A stretch of DNA of 64,000 nucleotides from Trypanosoma brucei (GCA_000002445.1 CM000208.1:1152001-1216000), one strand, 5' to 3'. Counted from the first letter of the stretch, positions 8,140 to 54,537 are shown. Numbers and translations: made by a program. Notes: generated by a model not told the origin, from the letters alone.

Positions 8140-8473
8140 ATAATCTCACACCCCACTCCTACTTGCGCTATTCACACATAGGTAACAAAAGAGACGTGTT
8201 TACGAGCATACTCACTAGCAGTATTACAATTTCATCCATACATGCAAAGTAAAGAAGGGCACTCAAAAGCATCCCCTGCAACGCAAGAACACCTTTGACA
8301 AAAAATGTTACAGAGCGAATACACGCACCCGCTCATATACGTGTATATAGTCACACCTACGTACGAATGCACACGCACGTACGGTTCCACACACTTACAG
8401 AACCACACAAAACAACATGTCATTAACAACAACTCCAACAATCATCGACACGGCAAACCGCATTGCAAGTCGG

Positions 8474-9337: not shown

Positions 9338-9516
9338 TCTCCTTTTCTCTTAATTTCCGGTATTGCTCACGAAAAGGTTGTGAACAGCCAGTAAACAGTG
9401 AAAAAGTGCCGAACTTACATATACGCCCATGGAGGAATGAGAAGGGGGAAATAAAGAAGTGATGTGCGCAGACCACTACGCGAATGATATGTGGTGCGAC
9501 CCAAGCGCCACCAACG

Positions 9517-10068: not shown

Positions 10069-10308
10069 TTCAAATTTCTAAAACTGTGTCGTAATAAAGG
10101 TGAGGAAACGGGAGTGTACAGGGAACGATACTACAGGGACAAATACAACTTTTGTGGCATTTTGCGTATGGCTACGCTACGTCCAAAGCCGTCACAGCCC
10201 AATGGACACCGGCAGAAGCAGCAACGACAGCAAATTTTAAAAAAAGGTCTTGCAGCCCTTTCACGCAAAATGACAAAGATAGACACGAGTAGTGAAGAAT
10301 CAGGCACT

Positions 10309-10779
10309 TCAAGGCTTCTTAACGGTATTCATCACGTTAGTGCGAAGGAGATCGTCAACCTTCCCTTGTTTGGACTCCATCTCCAACTCACGTTGATGTC
10401 GCCACACGCGCATCCTCAGCCCGTCCTCCTCCATCACTCTCTGCAGCTCGTTCTGATTGTACGGGTACCTCTCGAAAATACCCGTCCTCATCATGCCGCT
10501 ACCATAACGCTCAACGTAAAACATAACCTCCTTCCTCCCCAACCACCTGTAATCATCAAGCGGCTCCTCACCGCTTTTAGAGCGAGCACACCTCCACAGC
10601 AGCTTCGCAAGCTGAAATTGATTAACCGGGGAGTCAAGACGCAAAAATGAACCCATGAAGTCCTGAAAACGATCATCACAGCGCCACGGACGCATACCGT
10701 AATATATACTGCGACCGGTAACTACGTTAAGAGCCTCTGGTGCATCCACAACCCTAGAATAATGAGGTGTGCTACCCAT
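10309..10779 (-). CDS. Hypothetical protein, 156 aa
   Basis: ORF on the transcription-unit strand in an otherwise gene-dense region. No motif recognised. Confidence 0.4.
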   Translation of the reverse strand: MGSTPHYSRVVDAPEALNVVTGRSIYYGMRPWRCDDRFQDFMGSFLRLDSPVNQFQLAKLLWRCARSKSGEEPLDDYRWLGRKEVMFYVERYGSGMMRTGIFERYPYNQNELQRVMEEDGLRMRVWRHQRELEMESKQGKVDDLLRTNVMNTVKKP

Positions 10780-11105
10780 TCACCACTCACTGCAGTTCCA
10801 CTAGCAATTAGTACCAGTCTAATCTACAAGAAAAAATGTGAAAAACAGAAACACAAGAATTTAGTACTTACCTACCACGGTACAAAAAAATTTACAGACA
10901 ACACAAACAACATCAAATCAAAAATATATATCAGAAACTTTACTTAGTATTCTCAATTATCTCATGATCATGTTTAAGTTTACTACAATCCTAGTTTATT
11001 TCTTAAAACCCAAATAGTAACTACCAACCCCTTTCCCCAACACCGCATTAAAAAAGAGGTTTTACTGACGCAGTTACGAGTAAAACGAAAAACTAATTAT
11101 ACCGC

Positions 11106-13646
11106 CTATAGCTTGTCCAGGAAGGTGTCGAGGCCCGGAATGTCTGGTTTGAGGCCCTTGCGTTGGCGAATGCTCAGCACCAGAGTGTTTGCCTGTGACT
11201 TGGGGTCAAGCGGGTCACCAGGGTACTGCTGCCAGTGGTCAAACACACACTGCGGGAATGCCTGGCCTCCGGTTCCGGCACGAAGGTCAGCGGTGAAACC
11301 GAACGACTCGGCGACTGGGAGGTATGCACGAACGTTGTAGATGGGTGTGCCTGGGCGGTTCTCCTCGCCGATAATCACACCACGGCGGCGTGTCAGTACA
11401 CCGTAGATGCCTCCCATGGCGTGCTCCACAGTCTGAATGTCAACCTGGAACATCGGCTCCATCAACCGCGGCGTAGCAGTCAGGCAGCAGGCATAGAACA
11501 CACGGCGGGCAGTGGGGATGATCTGACCGCCACCACGATGGATGGCATCAGCGTGCATCGTCACGTCCTCCACGTTGATCCTCACACCACGCATGTTCTC
11601 GTCACAGAGCACACCCTCACGTGTCGCCCATTGCCAGGCCGCAACGAACGAATCTTTCATTTCCATCATGTTCTGCACACCCTTCGTCACGTCCACAACC
11701 ACGTTGGGTCCGCGATTGTCGGGACCGTAGCACCAGATCTTACGCGCCTCAGCCACATCCCATTCGAACTTGTCCGCAAGGAAGCGGGCACGAGTCTTGG
11801 GGTCCGCCTCGGAGCCGGCATTTGCGCCATCCTCAATCTCAACGCACAGCTCCTCCGTCAGCGGCGCGCCGCGGCAGAATAGACGATTGTGTTTGTTAGC
11901 AGACTTGGAGAGACATTGTATCGACGACACATCCGTCACAGTTTCACGGAACGACACCACAGGTTCTGAGATCTTTAGCGGTGCGCCGTTCATAAAATCT
12001 TCCTGAAGATCCTTGAGGCAAATCTCCAAGTGCAGCTCACCAGCACCAGCAACAATGTGCTCACCGCTTTCCTCAATCGAACACACAACAAGGGGATCGG
12101 ATTTTGCAAGGCGCTTCAGCCCTTCCACCAACTTGGGAAGGTCCGACGGGTTCTTGGCCTCCACAGCAACACGGACGACAGGTGAGACGGAGTATTTCAT
12201 GTCACGAAGCGGGTGCGGGGATTCACCATCGTCAGTGATGGTGGCAGACTTCACAATGTACTTGTCCACTCCCACGAGACCAACAACGTTACCGCACGGC
12301 ATGTCCTCCACGGCCTCCTGGTAGCGACCCATCATCAGCACCGTACGCTGCACCGGCTTGTCCTCGTACAGATCTTGCTTCTTACCATGGATGTAGTTGT
12401 TACCCATGATACGCACCTTCTGACCGCATCGAACCTTACCAGAGAAGATACGACCGAACGCAAAGAAGCGGCCACGATCGGCGGTCGGTACCATCTTGCT
12501 AATGTACAGCATCAGCGGTGCATTCGGGTCGCAGTTCTTGATACCCATGTAGTATTTCTCATCTGGGTTAGACTCACCGGAGTAGAGCATCTCAGCACGG
12601 TAGCTCTGTGCCTTCTTGGGTGAAGGCAGGTGCGCTACGATCATCTGCAGCAGTGTCTCGGCAGCAGGAAGGAACTTCATCATGATAGATTTCAGTAACT
12701 TCTTGGGAACCTGCTCGCGCTCCTCGGTTGTCAGGTTAATGTTGAGTGACTTGAGCATCTTCTCCACCTTCTCAGCCTTCTCTGTCATTACTGCATCGAA
12801 GATCTGGTAGATGGGGTCCAAGCAGAACTGGCAGAACGCGCGACGTACACGCTCACCTGCGGCGTTTGTCTCACTCTTGATCCATTTCTTGTTCTTCGCG
12901 TCAAAGAAGTTATCACCCCATAGTCGCTCACACATCTTGGACTCATCAACACCGAACTTGGATGCGTACATCTTCGCAAAGCGGGTGACAGAGAAGGCCC
13001 AAGCCTGCAGGCCGGAACCAATGGCGACTGTACCCTTCTCGGGGTACACCTGCACGTCACCCATGACGGGGTCATTGTAGGTGGCGATCACAACGTTCAC
13101 GTTTTGCAGTGTCTTCACGAAGCCCTGGTATGCCTCTTCGGGGTCCAGCTGTAGCTCCAGAATAGCACGATCCACCTTGTTGATGAAGACTACGGGGCGA
13201 ATACGCTCAGTCAGAGCCTGGCGAAGCACCGTTTCCGTTTGCACGCACACACCCTCCACACAATCAACGACCACTAGGGCACCATCGGTCACACGGAGTG
13301 CAGCAGTAACCTCGGAACTGAAATCAACGTGCCCGGGTGAGTCAATAAGATTGATCAAGAAGTCACGGCGGTCATCGGGAAGGTCACTGATAATCTCGGG
13401 AGGTACATGGTAATGCATCGAGATGGCAGTCGACTTGATTGTGATACCACGGGCAATTTCGTCCGCACGAGTGTCCATGATACGTTTGTCACCGGCGTCC
13501 TCCATCTTAATGATACCAGCGGCACCGACAAGCGAGTCGGACAGAGTGGACTTGCCGTGGTCGACGTGCGCGATCACGGACATATTACGGATCTGTTCGG
13601 GGTAGTCCATGAGGGCACGGACCTCATCAACGGTGAAGTTGACCAT
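11106..13646 (-). CDS. EF2: Elongation factor 2 (eEF2), tandem copy 1
   Basis: 846-aa translation with GTP-binding motifs [17 protein letters not shown] and NKVDR, plus the C-terminal eEF2 domain IV/V including the diphthamide-region [18 protein letters not shown]. Confidence 0.95.
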
Positions 13647-37829: not shown

Positions 37830-39263
37830 CTATGAGTGGCTATCTTTCATTTTGCGCCTCGCTTGCCTTGCCAACGCTTCCGCGCAGGGTCTGTAGGATC
37901 TACGGTGGATGGAGGACAAACCGTGTTTCTTCACAGCACGCATGTGATGATCCACAGGATAGCCCTTGTTCTCTGCAAAGTGATACTTTGGGTACAATGG
38001 ATCAAGATAGTCCATTATCTCATCCCGCGAGACCTTGGCAAGACACGAAGCAGCTGCAATTGTAAGGCTGCGCTTGTCGCCCTCTATGATCGGCTGCACG
38101 CAGCCACCCGTCTGAACATCAGTGAAAACGGAAACCGTTTCGTAGGGCGCTGTGTGCCCATCAACTAAGACCAATGGAGGCTGGACAGGTTCTGCGTCAA
38201 AAAAGTCAGTCGCACCCTCTACCAAGTCGATTTGGTCGGGAACCTCATATCGCCGGCGATCATCGTTTGCAGCGGTTATACAAAACCTCGAGAACAGATA
38301 CTGGGCAATAGAACAGTTTTTGGGTCGAGGTGCTACATGGTAGGAAAAACGCGCATCATTCAGCGCATCCCAAACACCGAGGCAACATCGATGCATGGTG
38401 TTCATAGAGGCGGAATAGATGTTAACCGTGTCAATGTAAGTGTGGTTTGCAATACCAATGGCCCAAAAGTACAAGTAATTACCGCTAACATTGCTACCGT
38501 GGTATGAAATCAAATACGGCGTCTGCATGGAGAGAAGCTTCTTAAAAGGCAGTTTGCCCAGTTTGGTGTGTGAAGGAAGTCGTTTCTTCAGCACATTATC
38601 GGGCACCGAATCGCCCCCGGCATGGTGAACCACGAAGTCCTGGTCTTCCACTAATGAAAACAAATTGTGGTACCCGGTGATATTGTTATATACGACTTTA
38701 CGTTGGGTTTCCGAAACTGACTTGCTGTCAAATATCTGAAACTCCTCATCGGCATCGTACAGTGCCTTTAGATCGTTGTTAAAACTTGAACGTGGGATGC
38801 GACATACGGCCGCCCCAACCACCGGCCCAGCAAGTGGTCCACGACCAGCTTCATCACAACCAATTGTTAAAAACGTTTCTTTTATACTTCGCCGAATCAC
38901 CACCCCGTTCTTCCGCATGCGTGCCATTAACTGCTCCTTTTCCTTTTCAAGTCTACGCATTTCCGGTGTGAGATGCTTCGGGAACTGGAGCTGTTGCTGC
39001 CGCCGCTGAAGGAAACTGAGGGGTGGTGGGGAAAGAAGACCGTCACGGAACAACTGGTATCCAACCATATCAAGCGTACTATCAAGCGTAGCCACGCTGT
39101 CGACCGTCGTGCGAGGTGGGACGCGAAGCTCACGCAAAGCGTCCCACGGGGTCTTGCGCTCATGAGACCCCCGGTCAGCGCTATTTTTACACGGCATCGT
39201 GGGCCGGAAGGCACCAAACAAAAGTGCTGGGGAATGTGAAAAACACGCCCTCACACCCAACAT
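37830..39263 (-). CDS. RNH2A: Ribonuclease H2 catalytic subunit A (RNase HII family), with long N-terminal extension
   Basis: RNase HII motif GCDEAGRGPLAGPVV. C-terminal conserved block IEGDKRSLTIAAASCLAKVSRDEIM...YPKYHFAENKGYPVDHHMRAVKKHG. About 130 aa precede the catalytic motif. Confidence 0.8.
   Translation of the reverse strand: MLGVRACFSHSPALLFGAFRPTMPCKNSADRGSHERKTPWDALRELRVPPRTTVDSVATLDSTLDMVGYQLFRDGLLSPPPLSFLQRRQQQLQFPKHLTPEMRRLEKEKEQLMARMRKNGVVIRRSIKETFLTIGCDEAGRGPLAGPVVGAAVCRIPRSSFNNDLKALYDADEEFQIFDSKSVSETQRKVVYNNITGYHNLFSLVEDQDFVVHHAGGDSVPDNVLKKRLPSHTKLGKLPFKKLLSMQTPYLISYHGSNVSGNYLYFWAIGIANHTYIDTVNIYSASMNTMHRCCLGVWDALNDARFSYHVAPRPKNCSIAQYLFSRFCITAANDDRRRYEVPDQIDLVEGATDFFDAEPVQPPLVLVDGHTAPYETVSVFTDVQTGGCVQPIIEGDKRSLTIAAASCLAKVSRDEIMDYLDPLYPKYHFAENKGYPVDHHMRAVKKHGLSSIHRRSYRPCAEALARQARRKMKDSHS

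Positions 39264-39970: not shown

Positions 39971-40003
<33 letters not shown>
39971..40003. repeat. (TA)16 dinucleotide microsatellite
   Basis: Perfect alternating at/ta run, 37 nt upstream of the NOP10 ATG on the minus strand. Confidence 0.9.
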
Positions 40004-40005
<2 letters not shown>

Positions 40006-42143
40006 TCCTTTTCTCCTTCTTCTTCAAAGCGTGTCTCAAGATAGAGAAGTGAGATGAAGAGCACCATTTAGAGTCGGAAGCGGTGAAGGAATTAAAACAA
40101 CGAAAAGATAATATTATTTTTTCCTTTGCTAAAGGGAAGAAAATGCCGTTACATAATCAACGAAACAAACAGCACAATCACACACGAATGCACCGCGCCT
40201 ACACGCAGTACAAAGAATTCGCGCATGCACTTTAATGAATACTGAATGCTGTGGGAAAACAAAAACAGAAACAAGGTATAGGCGCTGTGAGAAAAGACAG
40301 GAGTAAGGAAAAACAAAAAGATGAGCGGTGAATTTAAAAGAAAAAAAGGAAAGGGGGGAAAGAAGAGGGGGGGGAAAGAAAAAAAAAAAAATAGCGCCAG
40401 CAAAGAAAAAAAAAGAAAACGTTTCTAAAACCTTAAAGCTTAAAGAAACGGTGCCGTTCCTTCATGCTTACGCACACGTACACACACTTCCTCTCCCTTT
40501 CCAACACTGCATGTTATGTTACATCACCACAACTAATAACAACTAATAATAATATTAATACTGAAATTGATATCGTGAAAAATAGCGAAAGAACGTTGTG
40601 ATGCGGCTGGGCAATGATGCAGAGGTGAGGTTGGTCATGTGAGAAAAGAACAGCGTGCTGCAACAAACGCAAACAAAAAGAATATACGAATCGATACAAA
40701 AAAGTAAGGAAGGGAAAAACACATCTTCAAGAGGTTGTCGATCACTGGCAATTATTGCATGATATGTTAGACGGTAAATGAAGCGGATACAAATAAACAA
40801 GGAAATAGAAGGGGGGAGAAGTGGAAAAGTGGAGCAAAAATAAGACAAGAACAAAACGAACTTGTGGGTTTGGAAAAAGCGAAAGTGATGCCCAATCTAC
40901 CTGAAACTGCCAGTTGAAAAGATGAAGAAAAGTGGGGCGGAAAAAAATGGCCCCGTACGTCCACAACTCAATTTGCACTCAGTAATCCCCAAGTGCACAT
41001 AAACATTTCAATCATCTTCTTTTTAATTATTTGTCATCCAGCTAGATTCCTATAAAATTAGGTTATGAGAAGGCAACAAGCACGGCCAGAAGACAGGAAA
41101 CTGCCTCCGGTGCGATTATGAAAATTATTAGTCTTTTTTGTCCTCCCTATTCTTCTTTTCCCCTTCCTACTCACCTCTTTATTTATTTTCGCTGAAACCC
41201 CTAGTATTCTTCTACACCACGCACTCCCTTTTTTTTTTTCTGTCCCATTATTTTTACCTTTTTTTTTTCTGTACACCAACATCTCATAAAAATGTTTGTG
41301 TTTTGAATCACCATACGGTGCCATCCACCTGCTACTGTGAAAACAAAATCAAATCGAAAAAAAGAATGAAAAGCACTTTTCCCCCTTTGTGACGTGACAG
41401 AAGAAACTCCATATCAGGTGGGTCCCCCTTTAACTCTAAGGAAAAAAAAAACAAAGCGTCAACAGAGGGTAACAGAGAAAACAGAACAGAATAAAGAAAA
41501 AGAAAAGGAAATTAACAAAAACAGAGAAACGTGTACCTCGTACATACATGCAAACAAAATGAGGCACAAACACGTGCCGGAAATGGGCAACCGACATGAC
41601 TCTTCTCTCTTCTGACGCTTTTATATTTATTGTAACTTTCATTTTCTCTCATCCACCCACAGGATTTTATTGCGCATCGAGAGCCAAGAGGTGTCACATT
41701 CAGTGCCATGTGCATACGCAGAGAGGGAGGGCTGCACATTCATTAAAAGCGAATGAAAACCACAAACAAATATGTGTCCACCGCTATACGGAAATGAAAG
41801 GACCTATCGATGAGGAATATACATCACCACTCCTCCCATCCTTTTGATTGAAGCACAAATACATCCACCATAAATAATTACCGCGTGCTGATTTTGCATT
41901 TGTACGACTGCCAACGATTATTCGACGGTGCCGTTTCCTCCGCAACCCTTTTCTCTCTTCGTTCTGTCTTTTGTTTTGCTCCTTCCATCTATTGCCTTTG
42001 TTGTTATTTACGTTAAAACCGACAACTTTTCATTGGTTGTCCTCATATTTAGCCGTTAATACGGTCAATCAGGATGCCCTCACGCAAGCGCATAAATGCC
42101 TTAGATCTACACTTTACTTGGGTCTAAAACCCCCACACCATAC

Positions 42144-43862: not shown

Positions 43863-44618
43863 CTATTTACCTTCAAGGAGTAAACGGGGGGCATCTCCGT
43901 ACACCCACCGGTGCTTGTCTTGTGCGTACTCCAGTTCGTCCGACAGGGATTTAAAAACTTTGTTGTAATCTACCGGTTGTTGAGGCCCTCCACCACTCAT
44001 TGAATTCATCATCATAGCGTTCTCGTCTGGGATGCCCCCTTCTCCGAGTAAAAGCTGAAGGACGCTGTTGGAGCCAAACATAATCAGAAAGTACATGCTG
44101 AGTGACGTCACGTAATTACAGTCGAGGTCGTCAATCTCCACGCCACGCTGCATCATCCCTCGGAACCTAGATGCAAGCACGAATGGAAACTTGGCCACGA
44201 CAAAGCCAGAGAAAAAGTAGGAGACGAGCATCATCATTCCCATGCTTGGAAGCATCGACAACACATTCCCTTTCATCATATCGCCCAGAACGGTAGGGTC
44301 ATTCATGATCTCCATAGGGTTTACCTCAATCTTTTTTTTCAAGGGCCCCTCACGCAATGCCTTTACGCGTTGCTGGAAAGCCTCCGACGGTAGTTTCCTT
44401 CCCTCCGAGAGAAGGTGCCGTGCGCAGTTGACCGTATTTGCGCAGCACATGGTCTCCATCTTGGGAGACGCGCTGGTCTTCATCAGAATAGAGGCGTAAT
44501 GCTTTAGGATTCCAACAAAAATAACCAACGCAATAAGGGGGAACAGAACCCAGTCACGGATGCTGGGGTCCAAAAGAATGTTCTGCGTCATTGCGTGTAA
44601 TCTCCTTACCCCTACCAA
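43863..44618 (-). CDS. EMC3: ER membrane protein complex subunit 3 (EMC3/TMCO1 family)
   Basis: [32 protein letters not shown] aligns to EMC3 [45 protein letters not shown] aligns to [26 protein letters not shown] aligns to FSGFVTTKVPFPL. Confidence 0.7.
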   Translation of the reverse strand: [251 protein letters not shown]

Positions 44619-45010: not shown

Positions 45011-46351
45011 CTATTTCTCTGGTGGAGGTATTTTGCCGTCGACATGCGACCGAAAAATGTCTTCGGTAAATTGAAGAATACGTTCGCAGTACTTAAGCGG
45101 AGGTATGGTTGATAGCGTATCCATCCTCCACAAAAATGACTTGAAGAGTTTTGCGAGTTTCTTTTTAAATGTATATGGTGTTAGAACATCAATGACACCG
45201 ATGTAGTACACTTCTTGGTTGTACAAACTGAAAATCCCTTTCGAAAACTTACATTCACCTCCGCACGTCATCGTCCACTCAGGCCTGTTTTCCATCGCAC
45301 CCTCGGGAGGTCCGCAACGGGGATACGGCATGCGCATGCTCCGAAGCCGCTTCGTCGGGTTGGATATCCCCTTTTCCTCGTACGCTACGCCTATGAGAAG
45401 GGAGTAGTCCATCAACCCCACACTTGCAAGAAACTTACAATCGTCCCGAAGGGTAAGAAGAAGTTTCTCCCTTTGCTCCTTATCTAACCAAAAATAGCGT
45501 GTCAGGTCCTTATCCTTCTTCGTCGCAAGTTTGTTTTTATCAGTCGCTTTCGGCATTTCTTTCAGACCAGAGATGCCTGTCCCAGAAGGAAAATATTGCG
45601 TTGTGTCGGTGCCAGGTGTCGTACTTTGACCTGTGGTCGAATCGTATGGGTGCTGAAAAAGCTTTGCAAAGTGCTTGTATTTCCCGGGTTTTGGCCGGCG
45701 GCCCTTTAAATCCCATTTCTCATTTAGCGTGCGGCACGGCGCAAACACATCACCAAAGCAAAGTACGTAGCCTAATTCTCCCCGAAACTCCACACGAAGA
45801 AGCATATAAAATCGCATCAACAGGGTATTAGAATGTTCACGAAAATGTTTCGCGTAACGCGGAAGCAAATGGAGCAACACGTCTACTTCGACCTTTGCAA
45901 TGATTTTACACAACAGGTACTTGGATTTCGACTCGAGAAATAGCGCCATAGAGCGGCCCTCACTGAGCTCGAGGTCCTGTCGCTCATTCGGTAGATCCCA
46001 CTCATCAGCAAATGTCTTCTTGTCAAAGCCGTCAAGTTTCCGCAAAAGGTAAAACACATCGGGGGCGTACTCGTACACATTCATGGGTTCCTTACCATTG
46101 CCATAAGGACACAGAACACTTAGCCGTCGCCCATTACGGCATTTTTCTTCAGTGATATGCTCTAACGCTACCGTATCGCCTTCACGTTTGTTACCTTCCT
46201 GTTCTTTTTCTGCGTCCTCGGTGAGTTTTGAGCGCTCCTCGTGCTCTTCACCCGATGGCTTGCTCGCATACTTAAGGGCAGCGGCGACCTGCCGGCCAGT
46301 GAGTCCCTTGCCACTCGTAGCCGCACCACAAACCGCCTGGCATGAACCCAT
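45011..46351 (-). CDS. Phosphatidylinositol phosphate kinase (PIPK/PIP5K family)
   Basis: PIPK catalytic-core motifs: MDYSLLIGV (kinase core) and YYIGVIDVLTPYTFKKKL (the IID...Y C-terminal block typical of PIP5K). N-terminal MGSCQ suggests possible acylation. Confidence 0.75.
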   Translation of the reverse strand: MGSCQAVCGAATSGKGLTGRQVAAALKYASKPSGEEHEERSKLTEDAEKEQEGNKREGDTVALEHITEEKCRNGRRLSVLCPYGNGKEPMNVYEYAPDVFYLLRKLDGFDKKTFADEWDLPNERQDLELSEGRSMALFLESKSKYLLCKIIAKVEVDVLLHLLPRYAKHFREHSNTLLMRFYMLLRVEFRGELGYVLCFGDVFAPCRTLNEKWDLKGRRPKPGKYKHFAKLFQHPYDSTTGQSTTPGTDTTQYFPSGTGISGLKEMPKATDKNKLATKKDKDLTRYFWLDKEQREKLLLTLRDDCKFLASVGLMDYSLLIGVAYEEKGISNPTKRLRSMRMPYPRCGPPEGAMENRPEWTMTCGGECKFSKGIFSLYNQEVYYIGVIDVLTPYTFKKKLAKLFKSFLWRMDTLSTIPPLKYCERILQFTEDIFRSHVDGKIPPPEK

Positions 46352-47706
46352 CCGTGCAGATCACCGGAAAGGGGTGAAAGCAAGCAAAAAATAAGGGGGC
46401 AAACAACGAAAAAGGGACGAAACCTATATGTATATATAGGGGGACAAACCTGTACCTTTATATACAACAATGCAAGCAAACGAGGATAAATTGGAAACTG
46501 GTTTTCTAGCTGCCTTCTGGGACCTTGCTTCCTTTATTTTGTAGTACTCATTCACAACAAAAACCCTCCTTTTGAAAAGAAAAAAAGAGACGGGGAATAA
46601 ATTGGTAGATCCGGGGGGGGAAATCATCATAGAGTTAAACAAAAACAACAGACGAGAGTGGACAAAAAAATGGGTAACTAGAGACTATATGCAACGGTAA
46701 ATGTGGGTGGTTGTCTGACAACGCAAAACTTACGTGACTTTAATCCCCTCCCCAAACTTTCTCATCATTTCAACCCACAGTCAGCAGGAAAAGCAAAAAC
46801 AATATATGCCACCGACTTTATCAATTGCCCACAACCGCAACATTCAAAACTGGCGGTAACCATGACCAGACGGCTGGAAACTTCAACAAATATAAAGAAC
46901 CAATCGTGAGGGTGAAGCTAACGGCTCAGCTTACGCAACACTGAGTACCTTGCACATATGCGAAAAGGCAAGAAAAGATATCTGAAAAACTCATGTGAAG
47001 GCTCCGGCTCAACTCATTGGAACAATTTAGTGAACTCCTTCTAACGCTCGGTACGTTTTTTTCCCGGTCCAACCACCAACAGCAGAAGTGCCACCGTCAC
47101 CACCATATGGGGAAAGAAAAATCAGTAAAATCAACAGTCGAGTCCATAAAGAAGAGATAGATGTAGCACCCGGGTAAAAGATCAATAACTGATAGCACAC
47201 ACACAAGAGGGGGGAAAGAAAAAAAAGGAAAAAGAAGAAGCGGAAAAAATTTGGACGTGGTGAAATGAACCCGAAGACAAAGTAAAAAATCCTGTGCGGT
47301 CCGCGTAGGTTGCAATAAAGGTGAAGGAAAGAAAATATTTACCGCAAATAGACTGCACTGCACCGAAAGCGCGTCAAACAAGATTAGTAAAACGACGTCC
47401 GAATTGAAAAATATGCGGTTCCACGCCCACAACAAAAACAGAAAGACACGCCAGGTATGTGACATACCCCCTCGCGGCTATGGATTCCGGCGCGGGCAAA
47501 GGGAAACAACAATCCGAAAAAAAAAAAGGCAATGCATATCAGACTCACTTGCACCGTTTTTCAACGCTCAATCGGTACCTCAAGAAGAGATAACGAAAAG
47601 GCAGCGATTTTTATTTTTTATTTTTGCAAAAGTGCGCTAAAGAGAAGGGGAACCTCACAGGTGCAGAAGGAACCGCCACCAGGTTTGCCCGATGTACTCT
47701 AACGCA

Positions 47707-49383
47707 TCAGTAGCCCCCCTGGTCCCCAAATCGCCTCTGAATGTCGCCATTGAACGGGTTCTCAGTAGGTAAGATGCCGAGGTCTTGCATTTTCGCAAAT
47801 ACGCGAGCCCCCATAAGCGCTGTGGCGATTTGAGAAGGATGGAAACCATCAACCGGGTTAACAAGTTTCCATAGGGGGCCTTCGAAACTGCTAACGACTT
47901 CGCCAATAACGTCGCCAAGTGCATGGACTTTAATGTTTTCTAAATCAGTTGATTCATCCACGACGCGTGATATCATTGCATTCATTGCGCTGGCTCGCTC
48001 CCACGTCTCGTTCCGCACCGATTCGTTCGAGTTAAGCCACCCCCAGCAGGGCGAAACCTGCAGACAGTTCAAGTAATCATACAGATTACCGTACGTTACG
48101 TCGCTGTTGAGGGTGCCGATGGGATGGATCCGATTAACGATGCTGCCAATTGCAGCGCGTGCATCCACAAGAGAAACTATAAGAACATGGCTTCCGGGTG
48201 GTAAGAAGGAGTCCGCTTTCTTCACTGCCTCAGAAAGGCTATGGTAGTAATCAAGTGGGGTGGGTGCATCCTGCGGCCGAGGGCACACATCGTTCCCAAC
48301 CATAGAAAAGAAGACATAAGCGGGTTTCACACTCTCGGAACGGTTTCTGGCGACTGAGTCCAAAATAGAAAGAATACTTCCACTCCTAGCACCATTATGT
48401 CCCAGATTTTGATAATCACGGTGATTACATCGATTCAGCTCCACAAGTTTACTGTAAACCGATGCCATCGGCCCATCGACGTCCGGTTCATATCTTGTAG
48501 AGTTGGCGAAACCAGTTAAGCCGGAGAGCATCGGCCAGTCTATCTCATTGTCAAGTACAGGTATTATATTAGCAACCGCCTCTGAGGAAAGATCAAGTAT
48601 CGAAACATATCCTAAGGGAATACCAAAGTCGGCCGTTGCGCTGTCTCCGACCGCAATGACGCCCATGGGAGATGAGTTGCTGCACCACAATTCCTCATAA
48701 GTTTTTTTGCTCGATTCTTCCACGCCGTAGATGCCGTTGCAATTCTCATCCCTCTGGGAGTCAGTACTGTTCCGACCTGGGTACACCCGTGCATCGTCGT
48801 CATCACAATCGCGCCCCCTCCAATCCGTTCCACGTTTCGTTGGGTATGTTGAGAATCGATCCCCATCTTTATCATGTGCGGAATCTTCAAACAAAGGCCG
48901 GCAAAGAGTTGGGAACGTTCGGCAGGCATCCACCAATTTCCTGCCATCCAGGCGGTAAGCACTTCGTAGCTTATGTAAAGGCAAGGTGTCATTTTTGTCA
49001 GGCGGGAAGAGAATGCACTCTTCAGTATCGCAGTACTTCATTATCTGGCAAACTTTATCAGGTGTCCTTCCCTCATCAATCAACTGCAATGCCCCTTCCA
49101 ACAGAATGAGAGAAGCGGTCTTACAAAGGACGGCTTCAGCAGACCTGAAGAAGCTGCAAAAAAGGCCCAGAGCGTCCTTGGCTGGTATTTGATGTAGCTG
49201 ACCCAGTTGAGAGACCGTGGCAACTACGGCAGTACAGAGTACACACCCCCAGGTGTCTGAAGAACCCAGTGACTTGCTCTCCCTCGCTTCGGCTTTCGCA
49301 GTGTGGATGGACGGGCACACAACGGTTAGTTGCAGAAGCGCTGTGAACAAAAGCAGTTTGTAAAATATATAGAGTCGACTCAT
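47707..49383 (-). CDS. Acyloxyacyl hydrolase-like protein: saposin-B-type domain plus GDSL/SGNH lipase domain, secreted
   Basis: Signal peptide LLLFTALLQLTVVCP. Saposin-like Cys pattern CVLCTAVVATVSQL...C...C...C. SGNH-hydrolase block I VIAVGDSATADFG with downstream GHNGARSG and GNDV blocks. Overall layout matches AOAH. Confidence 0.6.
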   Translation of the reverse strand: MSRLYIFYKLLLFTALLQLTVVCPSIHTAKAEARESKSLGSSDTWGCVLCTAVVATVSQLGQLHQIPAKDALGLFCSFFRSAEAVLCKTASLILLEGALQLIDEGRTPDKVCQIMKYCDTEECILFPPDKNDTLPLHKLRSAYRLDGRKLVDACRTFPTLCRPLFEDSAHDKDGDRFSTYPTKRGTDWRGRDCDDDDARVYPGRNSTDSQRDENCNGIYGVEESSKKTYEELWCSNSSPMGVIAVGDSATADFGIPLGYVSILDLSSEAVANIIPVLDNEIDWPMLSGLTGFANSTRYEPDVDGPMASVYSKLVELNRCNHRDYQNLGHNGARSGSILSILDSVARNRSESVKPAYVFFSMVGNDVCPRPQDAPTPLDYYHSLSEAVKKADSFLPPGSHVLIVSLVDARAAIGSIVNRIHPIGTLNSDVTYGNLYDYLNCLQVSPCWGWLNSNESVRNETWERASAMNAMISRVVDESTDLENIKVHALGDVIGEVVSSFEGPLWKLVNPVDGFHPSQIATALMGARVFAKMQDLGILPTENPFNGDIQRRFGDQGGY

Positions 49384-49648
49384 TTTTCCAGGCTGTGGAA
49401 AGGGGGTCTTAATTAGCTAGCGCTATTTAAAGCGGCGCTTCCAGAATGAAAAAAAAGTCTGGAGGCGAAGAAAGGGTGTTTCACGGCTATCAAAAAAAAA
49501 AAAAAGAAGAGGCAGCAATAAGGCGTCGATTAGTCCGTTACATCTGAGACAGTTACAATTTTTATCGCAAAACAACCACAACCATCCATCCTTAAAACCG
49601 CCTGCAATCCATGTGCACAAACCAAAAAGAGGTACACCACATCATGTA

Positions 49649-50059
49649 TTACTTCCCCTTCTGCAACTTTAACAGCAATTTTTCCTTTACTGAAGTTTTG
49701 ACCGTGGGTGCCTCCACTGCGACAGTGTTGCCGAAGATGGCGGTGGCTTCTTCACGTTTCCGCTTATGCGACATGATTTGCTGCAACACGTATGCCTCTT
49801 GATCCTCAGCTGACTTTCTTGTCGGTCCATTCGGTCCTGGAGTGTTAGGCAGCGGATCAAGGGCGCTTACCGCGGTGCTCCTATCGATGTTGCCGACCCT
49901 GCTCCCGGCTATACCACTGTCCTCTCCGGTTCCACGACCAAACACCTTCTCACGAAGCGCACGCCGCCGCTGTTCACGCCACGCCACCGGGTCCTTACAC
50001 AACTCCAGTAAATCTGGGTTGACATCTTGAAGCGAACCATCATCCCCATCGTGGGACAT
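49649..50059 (-). CDS. Hypothetical small protein
   Basis: ORF on the transcription-unit strand. The ORF track extension to 50182 is Cys/Pro/hydrophobic; Met at 50059 (MSHDGDDG) is preferred. No domain recognised. Confidence 0.35.
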   Translation of the reverse strand: MSHDGDDGSLQDVNPDLLELCKDPVAWREQRRRALREKVFGRGTGEDSGIAGSRVGNIDRSTAVSALDPLPNTPGPNGPTRKSAEDQEAYVLQQIMSHKRKREEATAIFGNTVAVEAPTVKTSVKEKLLLKLQKGK

Positions 50060-50260
50060 CGCCCTAATACTACGCAGTATAAAAGGGCAAGGATGCAGCG
50101 GCGTCAGGCAGCAGATAAGTGTCCCCACACTCACCACGCAGGGACACACAAATGGGGGAGGAACAGTTCGCAACAATACCAAACGATACTATGAGCATAT
50201 AAACCTGTCACACACGAAAATCCCACTGGAGGAGAACGTGGCACACAAATTCGACCCCGC

Positions 50261-51350
50261 TCAGATGGTAAACCAGACAGTGACATCTCACTTTACAAAA
50301 AACTCAAAAAGAACGCAGCAGATGACAAATCGTCACGGCAATTTCACAATATGAGGTGGGCGGAGAATGGATGAAGGAAAGAGATAGTAGTCATAACGGT
50401 GGGCTCATTGTAACTATGACATGTTGTATTCGTAAATAATCATACGGTAAGGTCACCAAAAATAATACGTGTTGGAATCACTGCACAATAAACCGTCTGA
50501 CAGCCTATTCCTATGTACTAGCCAAGATGGGAAAGGTAATACATACGCACATGCGAAATTGCTCAGTCGGTAAGTCATGTAACATCTCACTTTACAAAAA
50601 ACTCAAAAAGAACGCAGCAGATGACAAATCGTCACGGCAATTTCACAATATGAGGTGGGTGGAGAATGGATGAAGGAAAGAGATAGTAGTCATAACGGTG
50701 GGCTCATTGTAACTATGACATGTTGTATTCGTAAATAATCATGCGGTAAGGTCACCAAAAATAATACGTGTTGGAATCACTGCACAATAAACCGTCTGAC
50801 AGCCTATTCCTATGTACTAGCCAAGATGGGAAAGGTAATACATACGCACATGCGAAATTGCTCAGTCGGTAAGTCATGTAACATCTCACTTTACAAAAAA
50901 CTCAAAAAGAACGCAGCAGATGACAAATCGTCACGGCAATTTCACAATATGAGGTGGGCGGAGAATGGATGAAGGAAAGAGATAGTAGTCATAACGGTGG
51001 GCTCATTGTAACTATGACATGTTGTATTCGTAAATAATCATGCGGTAAGGTCACCAAAAATAATACGTGTTGGAATCACTGCACAATAAACCGTGTGACA
51101 GCCTATTCCTATGTACTAGCCAAGATGGGAAAGGCAGACGTATAAACCCAATGCCGCTCAGTTTCTTGTGTCTCAGTGACATCCTACTTTAAACGTCAGT
51201 TCAAACAGAACGCATTTATTGACAGGGCATCATAGCGGCGATCAAACTAAGGTAGCGCAGTGACAGCTAACTCATTGTAACTATAACATGTTATATTCGT
51301 AAATAATCATACGGTAAGGTCACCAAAAACAATACGTGTTGGAACCGCAG
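50261..51350. repeat. Tandem array of a roughly 298-bp repeat: three near-identical copies plus a degenerate fourth
   Basis: Copies start at 50284, 50582 and 50882 (periods 298 and 300), about 99% identical with 1-2 substitutions each. A fourth copy at about 51181-51350 is diverged but keeps a roughly 75-nt core (ctcattgtaactat.acatgtt.tattcgtaaataatcatacggtaaggtcaccaaaaa.aatacgtgttggaa). No ORF on either strand. Confidence 0.9.
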
Positions 51351-51658
51351 CTTGGTGCAATAACTTGGAAAATCACAGCTCCCAGTATCTAGCCGTAAGA
51401 TCGGTACCAACCGTGGCGGCTCCGCAACCGTTGGTACCGACGCTACCGGGGCAGGGCAACGTCCGTTACAGGCATAACGCTGCAGCGATCCTTTGGCAAG
51501 CAAAGCTACGGAAAAAAGAAACACAACCAAGAGATGTGCCACCATGCGCTCGAAAGTTTATGAGTTCAGTAAACAGTCGGACAAAAGAGACTATCCCTAC
51601 ATCTCAAGCACATTAACACACGGTGGGGTTGCACAGGCCTGTACAAAACGTAATTATG

Positions 51659-51659
<1 letters not shown>

Positions 51660-51698
<39 letters not shown>
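51660..51698. repeat. (TA)19 microsatellite
   Basis: Perfect at-repeat in the 3' flank of the 52085-53830 gene. Confidence 0.9.
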
Positions 51699-51701
<3 letters not shown>

Positions 51702-51970
51702 CTGCTGTGACCTAAAGAAAAAAGTGAATAGAAAGAACGGGAAAACCGAAAGGCAGGGACGTCGATGTGTGACAGAAGGAGATGCCCTCTACCGACCCAC
51801 CCGCTCATCCATCCTAGAACGTATAAGATTTTGTACATTCCAGCCACGGCAGCACGCTCCTAGCAACCAAGAAAAATAAAATGTAGTTTGTGCAAACGGT
51901 TATGCAGCGTCCCCACCACCAAAAAAGAAAAAGGTAAACCAAAGCAAACAAAGGCGGGGGAGCATAAACG

Positions 51971-51975
<5 letters not shown>

Positions 51976-52004
<29 letters not shown>
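51976..52004. repeat. (AT)n microsatellite
   Basis: Second at-repeat about 80 nt downstream of the stop of the 52085-53830 gene. Confidence 0.85.
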
Positions 52005-52009
<5 letters not shown>

Positions 52010-52084
52010 GGGGGACCAACAAGAGCCCTCGCAAGTACTTGAAACGAAACTAAAGGAGAAATAAGGGAAAGCACAGGCCCACAC

Positions 52085-53830
52085 CTACGCAGAAGAACAT
52101 TGACTTGTATCCAATAACTGATACGGATCGTACCAAATCGGAACCGACACACCCCCGAGGTCCACACCCGCAGCTTTACGAAGAGCCTTACGCCACTCCG
52201 CCTGACCGTCCTCGCAATACTTCGCCTTGCGGTCCATGAAGTTGTTTACGTCCCCCTCCGCTTCAGGATCCGGTAGCGTAAGAAACTCCGTAGGAAGCCG
52301 CCTGCAGCGGGAATTGGAAACACAGAGCTGGGGCTTGACCGAGTGTCCATCGCTGGAAGCTACTTTTTGCTCGAGCCCCTCGCGGCCCGTTGGCGGACGC
52401 TTCACACGGGCAGGTTGCTCTAGATCCCGATGCGAAGGCATGAGCACGTACCGAGCTTCGAGCTCCCTCACTAAGTTTGTCCACTTCTCACGCTCTCCCT
52501 TTGGAATTACTTCGATGTTCCGAAGCCAGTCCAGGTTCCGCCGGCCTCGGCCGTTCAGGTCACGCAGCCATGACTGGCGACTCTCGGTACCCCATGACAT
52601 AAGTCGCATCCGGAGCAGCTTCTCCACAAGACCAAAAAGAAATTTAAATTGGCATCCCCACTTGGGTTCACCCACGAAACGTCGCAGGACAGCTATTCCA
52701 CCGTTACCTTCAAACGAACGTTGAATGCTCTCGTCAGATTCCACAATGATGTCCGTTAAACTTTCTGCCTGCTCGGCGGAGTCACATACCTGACATAGAC
52801 GAACAAAAGTCAGTACCATGTTTGATCTATCCTCTCCCAATCCCCTCGCTGAAGGGCTCCCCATGATTTGTGTCAATTTTTCCCTCCAGCGTGTTCGTCT
52901 AGGTGAAAAGTCGTCTACCTGTTTTGCCATAGCGGGTACGACAGGGTGTTCCATGTTTATCCTCTGCTGGATTCTAGTGGCTGGTGGATAACACATGCTA
53001 CTGGCGTGTGAGTTCGAGCAGGAAGGAGTGGAATCCGTAACCCCTCCCATGCTCTCGCCTCTGGATGTACCGTCCGTGTTAGCGAGTACGGTAACCTCCG
53101 TTGTTTTCATACTTAGCCACGATCCACTCCGGAGGTAGTTTTCTACACCTTGGCGCCTGTGGGAAGCGGATGGGAAGCGCACATTCGACGCCATGCTAAG
53201 GTTTTGGTATCGTGTCCCCCCTTTCCGCCAGTCAAGGAACTTTGTATGATATGTTTGCTCCGAAAAGACACCCCCAGGTATACCCGATTCGGAGATTAGG
53301 AAATAAATAAACTGTTTGACCACCTCGTCCCACTTGGGGCGGTTTTCTTCAGATATGACATCGTAGAGTAACTTTAACATGTCGCAGCTAGTCGCGTAAG
53401 AGATCGCCAGTCCGCTCTTGTTTCCCCATGTATACCGGGGTTTTTTTACACCATTCTTCACCGCCTGAACAGCCTGCTTTTCATACTCCAAACGTACCTG
53501 TTGAAGGAACATCTCAACAGCCACTCGAAAATAGTCAACAACTCTGTAATGGCCGTCTGGAAAACTATCATAGTTGGAAGCAACATACCGGACTACGTTA
53601 CGCGCAGAAGGGGAAACATGAATAACACTATCGTCGGGTTTTAGGAACTGTAGATTTGGGTTTCGCTTAACATTGCGGAACACTGGGTCATGACCGGAAA
53701 CTGAGGAAGTTTCACCAGAGAAAACGCTCGTTGCACCCTCTGATATCTGTCTGCTAGTGCGGGAACCGACTGAGCTTGGCGCGCTACTCAGAGAACTCTT
53801 ATATGAAGTGTCATACCCCGACGAACCCAT
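52085..53830 (-). CDS. Hypothetical protein of about 580 aa
   Basis: Long ORF. The ORF track start at 54052 passes through Cys/Val/Leu junk; Met at 53830 (MGSSGYDTSY) is preferred. No domain recognised. Confidence 0.5.
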   Translation of the reverse strand: MGSSGYDTSYKSSLSSAPSSVGSRTSRQISEGATSVFSGETSSVSGHDPVFRNVKRNPNLQFLKPDDSVIHVSPSARNVVRYVASNYDSFPDGHYRVVDYFRVAVEMFLQQVRLEYEKQAVQAVKNGVKKPRYTWGNKSGLAISYATSCDMLKLLYDVISEENRPKWDEVVKQFIYFLISESGIPGGVFSEQTYHTKFLDWRKGGTRYQNLSMASNVRFPSASHRRQGVENYLRSGSWLSMKTTEVTVLANTDGTSRGESMGGVTDSTPSCSNSHASSMCYPPATRIQQRINMEHPVVPAMAKQVDDFSPRRTRWREKLTQIMGSPSARGLGEDRSNMVLTFVRLCQVCDSAEQAESLTDIIVESDESIQRSFEGNGGIAVLRRFVGEPKWGCQFKFLFGLVEKLLRMRLMSWGTESRQSWLRDLNGRGRRNLDWLRNIEVIPKGEREKWTNLVRELEARYVLMPSHRDLEQPARVKRPPTGREGLEQKVASSDGHSVKPQLCVSNSRCRRLPTEFLTLPDPEAEGDVNNFMDRKAKYCEDGQAEWRKALRKAAGVDLGGVSVPIWYDPYQLLDTSQCSSA

Positions 53831-54537
53831 GTTAAGCGCTCTAACACACCTACAACAAAAAAGAGAAAGGAAAAAAGAGATTACGTATATCCGACGGGGC
53901 AACAACAGCAAAGTATAACAGATGCAACACAACACACGAGGCACATGCCGAGGTTGAGGTGCCGATACCCAAGGAGGTAATATTAAAATAATGTAACACA
54001 TAAACTTCTGCACGTGAACTTCCCGAACAAACACAAACACACAAACACACACAGAAGATAATCAGACAGCTCTTATTTCCCTCACACATTTGAGTTCACA
54101 CTACTCTATAACATGGAACGGAACAAAGTGGAACTTCAGCACGCAGAGAATACAAGAAAAACAAATTACCACTGGAGGTGTGTATAAAACAAAAATAAAC
54201 GTCCGCCAGAGAGAGAGAGATAGAGGGAAAGAGGCGATGTATCTGAAAATAATACCACTTCCGCGTAGGGGAGTTGAATGTAAGCAAATATATATACGAT
54301 GTACTAGGTGTACAGTCATAACGGATGTCTGTACATATATATATATACTATGGCATTGCGGTAACAGCACACGACCCGACGCGGCACGCCAAGGAGTAAA
54401 AGATAGAACAATAATTAAAATTTAAAAAAAAAACACCTCTGTTCTGGCACATTCCCTCTCTCTTTACTGCTCGGGCACTAATCGAAGGGGTACGGGTCTC
54501 CACTATGTGCATCACCGAATGTAACGGCGGGCACACC

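What the first reader, a model, noticed from the sequence alone, without database searches (positions are those of the whole stretch)
47707..49383. Secreted saposin+GDSL acyloxyacyl-hydrolase-like enzyme in a protist
AOAH is best known as the animal enzyme that deacylates bacterial lipid A. The saposin-B plus SGNH-hydrolase fusion is phylogenetically patchy. Its presence here with an intact signal peptide, Cys-rich saposin module and GDS(A) nucleophile block suggests a functional secreted or lysosomal lipase, possibly acquired horizontally or an ancient lysosomal enzyme. Substrate and role in a trypanosome are unknown.
Basis: partly seen in the sequence, partly recalled or inferred. Interest (0 to 1): 0.55.

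Follow-up and report, generated by a model that had tools for sequence, protein, structure and literature searches.

The report
Known trypanosome GPI inositol deacylase gene
The ORF is real and really is a saposin-plus-GDSL relative of animal acyloxyacyl hydrolase, but it is the already cloned and characterised Trypanosoma brucei gene GPIdeAc (Tb927.10.4780), which strips the fatty acid from the inositol of GPI-anchor precursors, so the finding is ordinary.

Summary
Window 47707-49383 (minus strand) is an intact 558-aa ORF with an N-terminal signal sequence, a six-cysteine saposin-like domain, an acidic calcium-site-like region and a complete SGNH/GDSL esterase domain (Ser248, Gly331, Asn364, Asp512, His515). 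It matches solved mammalian AOAH over its full length (E=4.5e-102). An AlphaFold model superposes on murine AOAH with TM 0.83/0.87.

The claim that substrate and role are unknown is wrong. The protein is 100% identical to T. brucei TREU927 XP_822725.1/Q38BC3, "GPI inositol deacylase precursor". It differs at 5 of 558 residues from CAC50079.1, the gene cloned by Güther et al. (EMBO J 2001). [quoted passage not shown]

Horizontal acquisition is not supported. Trypanosoma sequences form one clade that follows the species tree. An environmental kinetoplastid-like contig carries the orthologue in the same gene order. There is no affinity to animal or planctomycete homologues.

Verdict: already known, low interest.

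The parts
47707..49383 (-). Complete CDS of GPIdeAc (Tb927.10.4780), 558 aa plus TGA stop
   Evidence: ORF list. 100% identical to XP_822725.1/Q38BC3 and 5/558 differences from the cloned CAC50079.1. Gene ID from PMC3973304 and PMC3536898.
49487..49515 (-). Polypyrimidine tract followed by the first AG: putative trans-splice acceptor of the mRNA (inferred)
   Evidence: Sequence read directly. Its function is inferred from the general trypanosome splice-acceptor pattern and was not tested.
49291..49383 (-). Signal peptide region, aa 1-31 (MSRLYIFYKLLLFTALLQLTVVCPSIHTAKA). The cleavage site is inferred after the A-K-A motif.
   Evidence: The highest Kyte-Doolittle windows lie here. The AF2 model has a helix at 2-22 followed by a disordered stretch at 22-41. 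No signal-peptide predictor was available.
48991..49245 (-). Saposin-like domain, aa 47-131, with six invariant cysteines (C47, C50, C76, C87, C112, C118) plus C123
   Evidence: Pfam PF20825, E=1.3e-6, above cut-off. All 16 aligned family members hit PF20825. Invariant cysteines. Helical bundle with pLDDT 80-95. Matches AOAH small-subunit chains with TMt 0.71-0.76.
48724..48873 (-). Acidic D/N-rich segment, aa 171-220 (DKDGDRFS...RDCDDDD...DENCNG), equivalent to the N-terminal part of the AOAH large subunit; probable Ca2+-binding region
   Evidence: Invariant D171, D173, D175, D192, D212, N214, C193, C215. Sub-threshold Pfam Cu-binding_MopE hit at 192-218. Aligns with AOAH large subunit from residue 170. 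Calcium binding itself is inferred from what I recall of the AOAH crystal structures.
47803..48660 (-). SGNH/GDSL esterase domain, aa 242-527
   Evidence: Pfam PF00657, E=6.2e-7, above cut-off. Structural match to AOAH with TM 0.83/0.87.
48640..48648 (-). SGNH block I, G246-D247-S248; Ser248 is the catalytic nucleophile
   Evidence: Invariant in 16 sequences. Aligns with the GDS/GDA of AOAH, where the crystallised S262A/S263A mutants carry Ala. Coordinates checked.
48391..48396 (-). SGNH block II, N330-G331 (oxyanion-hole glycine)
   Evidence: Invariant. Coordinates checked.
48289..48297 (-). SGNH block III, G363-N364-D365 (oxyanion-hole asparagine)
   Evidence: G363 and N364 invariant, D365 nearly invariant. 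Coordinates checked.
47839..47850 (-). SGNH block V, D512-G-F-H515 (catalytic Asp and His)
   Evidence: Invariant. The motif PVDGFHP is identical to that of mammalian AOAH. Coordinates checked.

Best explanation
The ORF is the T. brucei gene GPIdeAc (Tb927.10.4780). It encodes a soluble, N-glycosylated, signal-peptide-bearing enzyme of the acyloxyacyl-hydrolase (AOAH) family that works in the secretory pathway; the literature places it in the ER. Proposed mechanism: the saposin-like domain and the hydrophobic face of the esterase domain dock onto the membrane and present a glycolipid to the active site. There Ser248, activated by His515 and Asp512 and with Gly331/Asn364 forming the oxyanion hole, hydrolyses a single fatty-acyl ester. 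In T. brucei the documented substrate is the acyl chain on the inositol of GPI-anchor intermediates, and the enzyme is a diisopropylfluorophosphate-sensitive serine hydrolase. It is one of two inositol deacylases; the other is GPIdeAc2, a PGAP1 homologue. It is expressed almost only in bloodstream forms, where GPI precursors must lose the inositol acyl group before fatty-acid remodelling and attachment to VSG. Procyclic forms keep the acyl group. Shown here: gene identity, domain architecture, an intact catalytic apparatus and the AOAH fold. Taken from papers: activity class, ER location, stage regulation and the existence of a second enzyme. Inferred: the membrane-docking role of the saposin domain, calcium binding and the signal-peptide cleavage site.
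For: Identity: exact match to XP_822725.1/Q38BC3 'GPI inositol deacylase precursor', and 99.1% identity to CAC50079.1 'GPI inositol deacylase [T. brucei brucei]'. [quoted passage not shown] A review states that GPIdeAc and GPIdeAc2 (the PGAP1 homologue) are the two T. brucei GPI inositol deacylases, and that deacylation is essential in bloodstream forms to complete fatty-acid remodelling (PMC12692612). ER location: PMC3320590. The DFP-sensitive inositol deacylase is in equilibrium with a PMSF-sensitive acyltransferase, and procyclin retains its inositol acyl (PMC8591177). [quoted passage not shown] Architecture and chemistry: Pfam Saposin and Lipase_GDSL hits; AOAH E=4.5e-102 over the full length; invariant S248, G331, N364, D512, H515, six saposin cysteines and the acidic cluster; AF2 pLDDT 82 with TM 0.83/0.87 to murine AOAH, including the lipid A and phosphatidylcholine complexes.
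Against: The primary experimental papers (Güther 2001, Güther 2003, Hong 2006) are not held in the library and could not be read. Details of the activity assays and the knockout phenotype therefore rest on citing papers and on my own recollection. That recollection is that the null mutant is viable, makes normal VSG anchors and loses only part of the deacylase activity. If so, this enzyme is not the sole deacylase and perhaps not the main one. The protein ends in GDQGGY and has no obvious ER-retention motif or second hydrophobic segment, so how a soluble protein stays in the ER is unexplained.
Confidence: 0.85

Rival explanations
1. One reading: it is a functional orthologue of animal AOAH, a secreted or lysosomal lipase whose real substrate is the acyloxyacyl-linked (secondary) fatty acids of bacterial lipid A.
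For: Identity to animal AOAH is 36-40% over the whole length, and every catalytic, cysteine and acidic residue is conserved. The model superposes on murine AOAH bound to lipid A with TM 0.82/0.86. The conserved C-terminus GDQGG(Y/H) is shared.
Against: [quoted passage not shown] It is reported as an ER glycoprotein, not lysosomal or secreted. It was isolated and named for GPI inositol deacylase activity. Trypanosomes are not phagotrophs of bacteria (general knowledge).
Confidence: 0.04
2. It is a broader glycolipid or phospholipid esterase. Its main job in vivo would be controlling or clearing pools of free or surplus GPI precursors, or other lipids, rather than acting as the biosynthetic deacylase, a role carried mainly by the PGAP1-type GPIdeAc2.
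For: A second, unrelated deacylase exists. [quoted passage not shown] AOAH was crystallised with phosphatidylcholine as well as lipid A, so the family's pocket accepts several lipids. T. cruzi pathway annotation lists only GPIdeAc2 as the inositol deacylase (PMC3738449), although T. cruzi has an orthologue of this gene.
Against: Reviews still list GPIdeAc as a GPI inositol deacylase. Bloodstream-specific expression matches the stage at which inositol deacylation occurs. No direct data here separate the two roles.
Confidence: 0.1
3. The gene entered trypanosomes recently by horizontal transfer, from a bacterium or from an animal host or vector.
For: Genuine bacterial homologues exist in planctomycetes (Ca. 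Uabimicrobium: 34% identity, E=5e-71, next to dnaG). No Leishmania protein appears among the named top 120 hits. In the NJ tree the Trypanosoma clade groups with ciliate/Colpodella/environmental sequences and not with the other Discoba sequences, Diplonema and Pharyngomonas.
Against: Trypanosoma monophyly has 100% bootstrap, and the internal branching follows the species tree. Support for Trypanosoma plus animals, or Trypanosoma plus planctomycetes, is 0%. The bacterial proteins lack the saposin domain. The environmental contig L009 has all genes on one strand and shares the gene order JBP3-like / 177-aa ORF / AOAH-like / PIP5K with the window. The gene has therefore sat at this locus since before Trypanosoma diverged from that kinetoplastid-like relative. 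The window's GC content is even across the gene.
Confidence: 0.02

Closest known systems
T. brucei GPIdeAc (GPI inositol deacylase; Tb927.10.4780; UniProt Q38BC3 / Q95P05; GenBank CAC50079.1; Güther et al. 2001)
   Same: It is this gene: 558/558 identical to the TREU927 reference protein and 553/558 to the originally cloned allele.
   Different: Nothing of substance. The five substitutions against the cloned allele (T182A, A307T, A469S, D480N, I484V) are strain polymorphisms outside the catalytic motifs.
Mammalian acyloxyacyl hydrolase, AOAH (PDB 5w78, 5w7a-5w7f)
   Same: Same architecture and order of parts: signal peptide, saposin-like domain, acidic Ca-site region and SGNH esterase, with the same catalytic residues and the same C-terminal GDQGG motif. 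E=4.5e-102; TM 0.83/0.87.
   Different: About 34-40% identity. The linker between the saposin and esterase domains is shorter. The documented substrate is the inositol-linked acyl chain of GPI precursors, not the secondary acyl chains of lipid A. It is reported in the ER rather than in lysosomes or secreted. Whether it is cleaved into two subunits like AOAH was not determined here.
PGAP1 / Bst1p / T. brucei GPIdeAc2 (the canonical eukaryotic GPI inositol deacylase)
   Same: Same reaction: removal of the acyl chain from GPI inositol by a serine hydrolase in the ER.
   Different: An unrelated protein family. PGAP1 is a multi-pass membrane alpha/beta-hydrolase (about 804 aa in T. cruzi). The window protein has no PGAP1 Pfam hit and no transmembrane segment beyond the signal peptide. 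The shared function is convergent.
Planctomycete AOAH-like esterases (Ca. Uabimicrobium amorphum, L003:2929-4233)
   Same: Homologous acidic region and SGNH domain, with the GDS, GND, DGFH and C-terminal GEQGGH motifs conserved. 34% identity, E=5e-71.
   Different: No saposin domain (434 aa; Pfam finds only Lipase_GDSL). Bacterial genomic context next to dnaG. It forms the outgroup to all eukaryote-type sequences with 100% bootstrap.

Membership tests
T. brucei GPIdeAc (Tb927.10.4780) | Amino-acid identity with the deposited GPIdeAc sequences | tested here: met
   Exact match to XP_822725.1/EAN77897.1/Q38BC3; 5/558 differences from CAC50079.1/Q95P05.
T. brucei GPIdeAc (Tb927.10.4780) | Hydrolyses the inositol-linked acyl chain of GPI intermediates; DFP-sensitive | not testable with these tools
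   Reported in Güther 2001, which is not held. Stated second-hand in PMC12692612 and PMC8591177.
Acyloxyacyl hydrolase (AOAH) family | Full-length colinear similarity to AOAH (saposin small subunit plus large subunit) | tested here: met
   phmmer E=4.5e-102 over residues 43-558 against 5w7d residues 24-562.
Acyloxyacyl hydrolase (AOAH) family | N-terminal AOAH-type saposin-like domain with six conserved cysteines | tested here: met
   PF20825, 28.9 bits against a cut-off of 27. C47, C50, C76, C87, C112 and C118 are invariant in 16 sequences.
Acyloxyacyl hydrolase (AOAH) family | Same three-dimensional fold, including the relative placement of the two domains | tested here: met
   AF2 model with pLDDT 82 and pTM 0.81. 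Foldseek against 5w7e_B gives TMq 0.83, TMt 0.87 over 537 columns; the best non-AOAH hit has TM 0.27. This is a predicted model, not an experimental one.
Acyloxyacyl hydrolase (AOAH) family | Conserved acidic (calcium-site) cluster at the start of the large subunit | tested here: met
   D171, D173, D175, D192, D212 and N214 are invariant. Metal binding itself was not tested.
Acyloxyacyl hydrolase (AOAH) family | Removes secondary (acyloxyacyl-linked) fatty acids from lipid A/LPS | not testable with these tools
Stage-specific expression and ER location argue against this being the physiological role.
Acyloxyacyl hydrolase (AOAH) family | Proteolytic processing into disulfide-linked small and large subunits | not testable with these tools
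   The linker at residues 124-170 is shorter than in animals and has low confidence in the model. No data on cleavage.
SGNH/GDSL hydrolase superfamily | Four conserved blocks: I (GDS), II (G), III (GxND), V (DxxH), giving a Ser-Asp-His triad and an oxyanion hole | tested here: met
   G246-D247-S248, N330-G331, G363-N364-D365 and D512-G-F-H515 are all invariant or nearly so. PF00657, 30.2 bits against a cut-off of 23.6.
PGAP1/Bst1 GPI inositol deacylase family | PGAP1-like alpha/beta-hydrolase domain in a multi-pass membrane protein | tested here: not met
   No PGAP1 family among the Pfam hits at E<=1. The only strongly hydrophobic segment is the N-terminal signal. The PGAP1 homologue of trypanosomes is a different gene, GPIdeAc2.

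The most novel reading that the evidence does not exclude
The enzyme's assignment as a 'GPI inositol deacylase' may capture only a side activity. This reading rests on my recollection that the null mutant is viable with normal VSG anchors, and on the fact that a PGAP1-type enzyme exists. The AOAH-family protein could instead be a bloodstream-stage-specific ER or endomembrane esterase that edits a wider set of acylated glycolipids, such as free GPIs or host-derived lipids. Conversely, the ancestral role of the widespread eukaryotic AOAH family might be endogenous glycolipid deacylation rather than LPS detoxification. Nothing in my evidence excludes this, but nothing specifically supports it either.
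Probability: 0.08. Interest if true: 0.4.

Novelty: already known. Interest (0 to 1): 0.07.

Why it matters
For a genome scan it matters mainly as a calibration point. A reader working from sequence alone correctly recognised an AOAH-like saposin-GDSL architecture, but the gene has been in the literature since 2001 with a named substrate. It is a good textbook example of an LPS-detoxifying enzyme family being used for an endogenous glycolipid: both substrates are acylated, phosphorylated, glucosamine-containing lipids. It is also an example of convergence with the unrelated PGAP1 deacylase. Nothing here opens a new question. The only open issues are the division of labour with GPIdeAc2, how the protein is retained in the ER, and whether it retains LPS activity. 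The field already recognises these.

Tried and rejected
(1) Reading the primary papers failed. Güther 2001 (DOI and PMC125599), Gorelik 2018 (PMC5798384) and Hong 2006 (DOI) are not held. Claims about them are limited to titles, citing papers or marked recollection.

(2) Full-text searches linking AOAH with GPI inositol deacylase or with saposin in T. brucei returned nothing useful.

(3) NCBIfam gave no hit, as expected for a prokaryote-oriented library.

(4) Bacterial origin. The genome scan returned two full-length 'bacterial MAG' hits, L001 (a 'Spirochaetia' record) and L002. For L001/L007, and for the related environmental contig L008, the 20-kb flanks hold only tiny ORFs with no Pfam hits. 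I rejected these as evidence for bacterial saposin-AOAH, because they are probably mis-binned eukaryotic DNA. L002's flanks were not examined beyond ORF coverage. L006, a 1-kb 'Saccharibacteria' fragment, is too short to judge.

(5) The first bootstrap script timed out. It was rewritten with numpy distances. Only neighbour-joining was available, so deep branching is not trustworthy.

(6) I tried to find the T. brucei JBP3 gene ID in papers to name the neighbouring ORF and did not find it. The question was settled by similarity to the solved JBP3 DNA-binding domain.

(7) I considered the possibility that the ORF is extended or mis-started, and rejected it. There is an in-frame stop 12 codons upstream with no alternative ATG.

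Full report
OBSERVATION. An in-frame TAG lies 12 codons upstream with no intervening ATG. A 24-nt polypyrimidine tract followed by AG sits about 105-130 nt upstream, the usual trypanosome trans-splice acceptor pattern, so the start is secure. All sizeable ORFs listed between 38 and 58 kb of the window lie on the minus strand, as expected for a kinetoplastid polycistronic unit.

The N-terminus holds the most hydrophobic segment of the protein (19-aa windows starting at residues 4-11), followed by A-K-A at 29-31. There are 17 cysteines and 7 N-glycosylation sequons.

DOMAINS AND CATALYTIC APPARATUS. Pfam places residues 47-131 in PF20825 (Saposin-like domain; 28.9 bits, cut-off 27). It places residues 242-527 in PF00657 (Lipase_GDSL; 30.2 bits, cut-off 23.6). 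There is also a sub-threshold MopE-type metal-motif hit at 192-218.

Against solved structures the protein matches murine AOAH over residues 43-558 with E=4.5e-102. It matches the separate large and small subunits of human and rabbit AOAH as well.

I aligned the protein with orthologues from other trypanosomes, ciliates, a sponge, molluscs, a tunicate, a reptile and a mammal. The following residues are invariant:
- the six saposin cysteines (C47, C50, C76, C87, C112, C118);
- an acidic cluster (D171, D173, D175, D192, D212, N214);
- all SGNH blocks: G246-D247-S248, N330-G331, G363-N364 and D512-G-F-H515.

An AlphaFold2 model built on that alignment has mean pLDDT 82 and pTM 0.81. It superposes on full-length murine AOAH, including the lipid A and phosphatidylcholine complexes, with TM 0.82-0.83 (query-normalised) and 0.86-0.88 (target-normalised). 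The best non-AOAH structure reaches only TM 0.27.

WHAT IT IS. The translated sequence is present, residue for residue, in public databases as XP_822725.1 / EAN77897.1 / UniProt Q38BC3, 'GPI inositol deacylase precursor [Trypanosoma brucei brucei TREU927]'. The same sequence occurs in T. equiperdum. The 90% cluster also contains CAC50079.1 / Q95P05, 'GPI inositol deacylase [T. brucei brucei]'. The window protein differs from that entry at 5 of 558 positions, none in a motif.

Two omics papers give the gene ID Tb927.10.4780 and the name GPIdeAc. [quoted passage not shown]

That paper is not in the held library. From my own recollection of its abstract, unverified here, the enzyme was affinity-labelled with [3H]DFP and purified. 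The cloned gene was explicitly noted to resemble mammalian acyloxyacyl hydrolase, with a signal sequence, a saposin domain and a GDSL-lipase domain. HA-tagged protein had inositol deacylase activity. The null mutant was viable with normal VSG anchors and only reduced total activity.

What I could verify in held papers:
- T. brucei has two GPI inositol deacylases, GPIdeAc and GPIdeAc2, the latter a PGAP1 homologue. Deacylation is needed in bloodstream forms to complete fatty-acid remodelling (PMC12692612; PMC3738449).
- The inositol deacylase activity is DFP-sensitive and balances a PMSF-sensitive acyltransferase. Procyclin keeps its inositol acyl group (PMC8591177).
- GPIdeAc is listed as an endoplasmic-reticulum glycoprotein (PMC3320590).
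- The protein is more than 30-fold more abundant in bloodstream than procyclic forms, with only a 3.5-fold mRNA change (PMC3536898).
- It is among the genes most strongly up-regulated in translation in bloodstream forms, rank 390 against 5994 (PMC3973304).

MECHANISM. The best-supported account is an ER-lumenal, soluble, glycosylated SGNH serine esterase. The saposin-like domain and the adjacent hydrophobic surface engage the membrane and the glycolipid. This is inferred from the AOAH structures, which were solved with LPS, lipid A and phosphatidylcholine bound. Ser248, His515 and Asp512, with the Gly331/Asn364 oxyanion hole, cleave the ester that links a fatty acid to the inositol of GPI intermediates.

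The chemical analogy with AOAH is close. Both substrates are phosphorylated, glucosamine-containing glycolipids from which one ester-linked fatty acid is removed. The stage-specific expression fits the biology, since only bloodstream forms deacylate.

Three things remain unexplained: how a soluble protein ending in GDQGGY stays in the ER, whether it is cleaved into two chains like AOAH, and how much of the flux it carries relative to GPIdeAc2.

ORIGIN. The family is not very patchy. Besides animals from sponge to mammals, named homologues come from:
- ciliates (Halteria, Platyophrya);
- Colpodella;
- a foraminiferan (Bolivina);
- a heterolobosean (Pharyngomonas);
- an amoebozoan (Phalansterium);
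- Diplonema;
- a glaucophyte (Gloeochaete).

Many environmental sequences are also present. Orthologues are found in all eight named Trypanosoma species among the hits, at 52-64% identity. No Leishmania protein appears among the top 120 hits.

In neighbour-joining trees Trypanosoma is monophyletic (100% of 500 bootstraps) and its internal branching mirrors the species tree. It groups with a ciliate/Colpodella/environmental clade (99%). It never groups with animals, planctomycetes, Diplonema or Pharyngomonas (0% each).

One member of that sister clade, P0009 (46-47% identical), lies on a 25-kb environmental contig on which all nine called genes in the 13-kb stretch examined share one strand. 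Four of its genes are colinear and co-oriented with the window:
- a JBP3-like gene (30% identity, E=1e-61);
- the 177-aa ORF (39%, E=1e-17);
- the AOAH-like gene (47%, E=1.5e-163);
- PIP5K (42%, E=7e-43).

That contig is therefore from a kinetoplastid-like relative, and the gene has occupied this locus since before Trypanosoma diverged from it. This argues for vertical descent with losses, not recent horizontal acquisition.

A caveat on the sister clade: Colpodella preys on bodonid kinetoplastids (my knowledge), so its transcript may be prey-derived. NJ trees also cannot settle deep relationships.

BACTERIA. A scan of 185,579 prokaryotic species genomes found six loci. The Ca. Uabimicrobium amorphum protein is genuine. 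It has 434 aa, is 34% identical over query residues 167-558 (E=5e-71), has all SGNH motifs, lacks a saposin domain and sits next to dnaG. It forms the outgroup to all eukaryote-type sequences.

Two records returned full-length saposin-containing hits: L001, labelled 'Spirochaetia bacterium MAG', and L002, an unnamed bacterial MAG. L001/L007, and the related environmental contig L008, sit in about 20 kb of DNA with only tiny ORFs and no Pfam hits. This is not what a bacterial chromosome looks like, so I treat these two as mis-binned eukaryotic DNA. L002's flanks were not examined beyond ORF coverage.

VERDICT. The architecture and the homology are right. The statement that substrate and role are unknown is wrong, and the suggested localisation and horizontal origin are not supported. 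The gene is already known and experimentally characterised. Interest is low.

Noticed in passing
window 52085-54052 (-): The 655-aa ORF two genes upstream of GPIdeAc is a J-DNA-binding protein 3 (JBP3) orthologue. Pfam gives only a sub-threshold JBP1 DNA-binding-domain hit (E=4.9e-4). phmmer against solved structures gives E=6.9e-48 to 'DNA binding domain of J-DNA binding protein 3' (9gsq).
   Followed up: yes
L009 (ENA ERZ19399582 scaffold_2222) 1021-13057 vs window 45779-53563: An environmental metagenome contig with all called genes on one strand shares the gene order JBP3-like / 177-aa ORF / AOAH-like / PIP5K with the window. It carries four extra genes, including an ALG10/DIE2 glucosyltransferase, between the 177-aa ORF homologue and the AOAH-like gene. 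It is probably an unsampled free-living or otherwise divergent kinetoplastid. The organism was not identified.
   Followed up: partly
L003:2929-4233 (Ca. Uabimicrobium amorphum NZ_AP019860.1), also L004, L005: The prey-engulfing planctomycete Ca. Uabimicrobium encodes a saposin-less homologue of the AOAH large subunit (34% identity, E=5e-71, all SGNH motifs, C-terminal GEQGGH) next to dnaG. An LPS- or lipid-deacylating role in digesting engulfed bacteria is an obvious but untested idea.
   Followed up: partly
L001/L007 (OZ253446.1 'MAG: Spirochaetia bacterium', 2.34 Mb) and L008 (ENA ERZ25069326 ctg78759, 1.25 Mb): Records labelled or binned as bacterial carry an intronless full-length saposin+GDSL AOAH gene. 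The surrounding 20 kb contains only tiny ORFs without Pfam hits (stop-to-stop ORFs of at least 100 aa cover 0.59 of the 7.7-kb locus L001). These are likely eukaryotic DNA mis-assigned to a bacterial MAG.
   Followed up: partly
protein search: Named orthologues come from eight Trypanosoma species, but no Leishmania, Crithidia or other Leishmaniinae protein appears among the top 120 hits (weakest listed E=1.8e-84). This suggests loss in that lineage. It was not checked against an orthology database.
   Followed up: no
trees: The Trypanosoma clade groups with ciliate/Colpodella/environmental sequences (99% NJ bootstrap) rather than with the other Discoba sequences, Diplonema and Pharyngomonas (0%). 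Possible causes are prey contamination of predator transcriptomes, ancient paralogy or eukaryote-to-eukaryote transfer. This was not resolved with the available methods.
   Followed up: partly
window 45011-46351 (-), 43863-44618 (-), 37830-39263 (-): Downstream neighbours on the same strand are a PIP5K-domain phosphatidylinositol phosphate kinase (E=4e-55), an EMC3/TMCO1-like ER membrane protein (E=1e-49) and a protein with an RNase HII domain (E=9e-23). These are ordinary housekeeping genes with no functional link to GPIdeAc suggested.
   Followed up: partly
window 40001-42000 and 50001-52000: Two intergenic-looking stretches have lower GC (0.396 and 0.429) and strong positive AT skew (0.19 and 0.24) relative to the rest of the window. 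They were not examined further.
   Followed up: no
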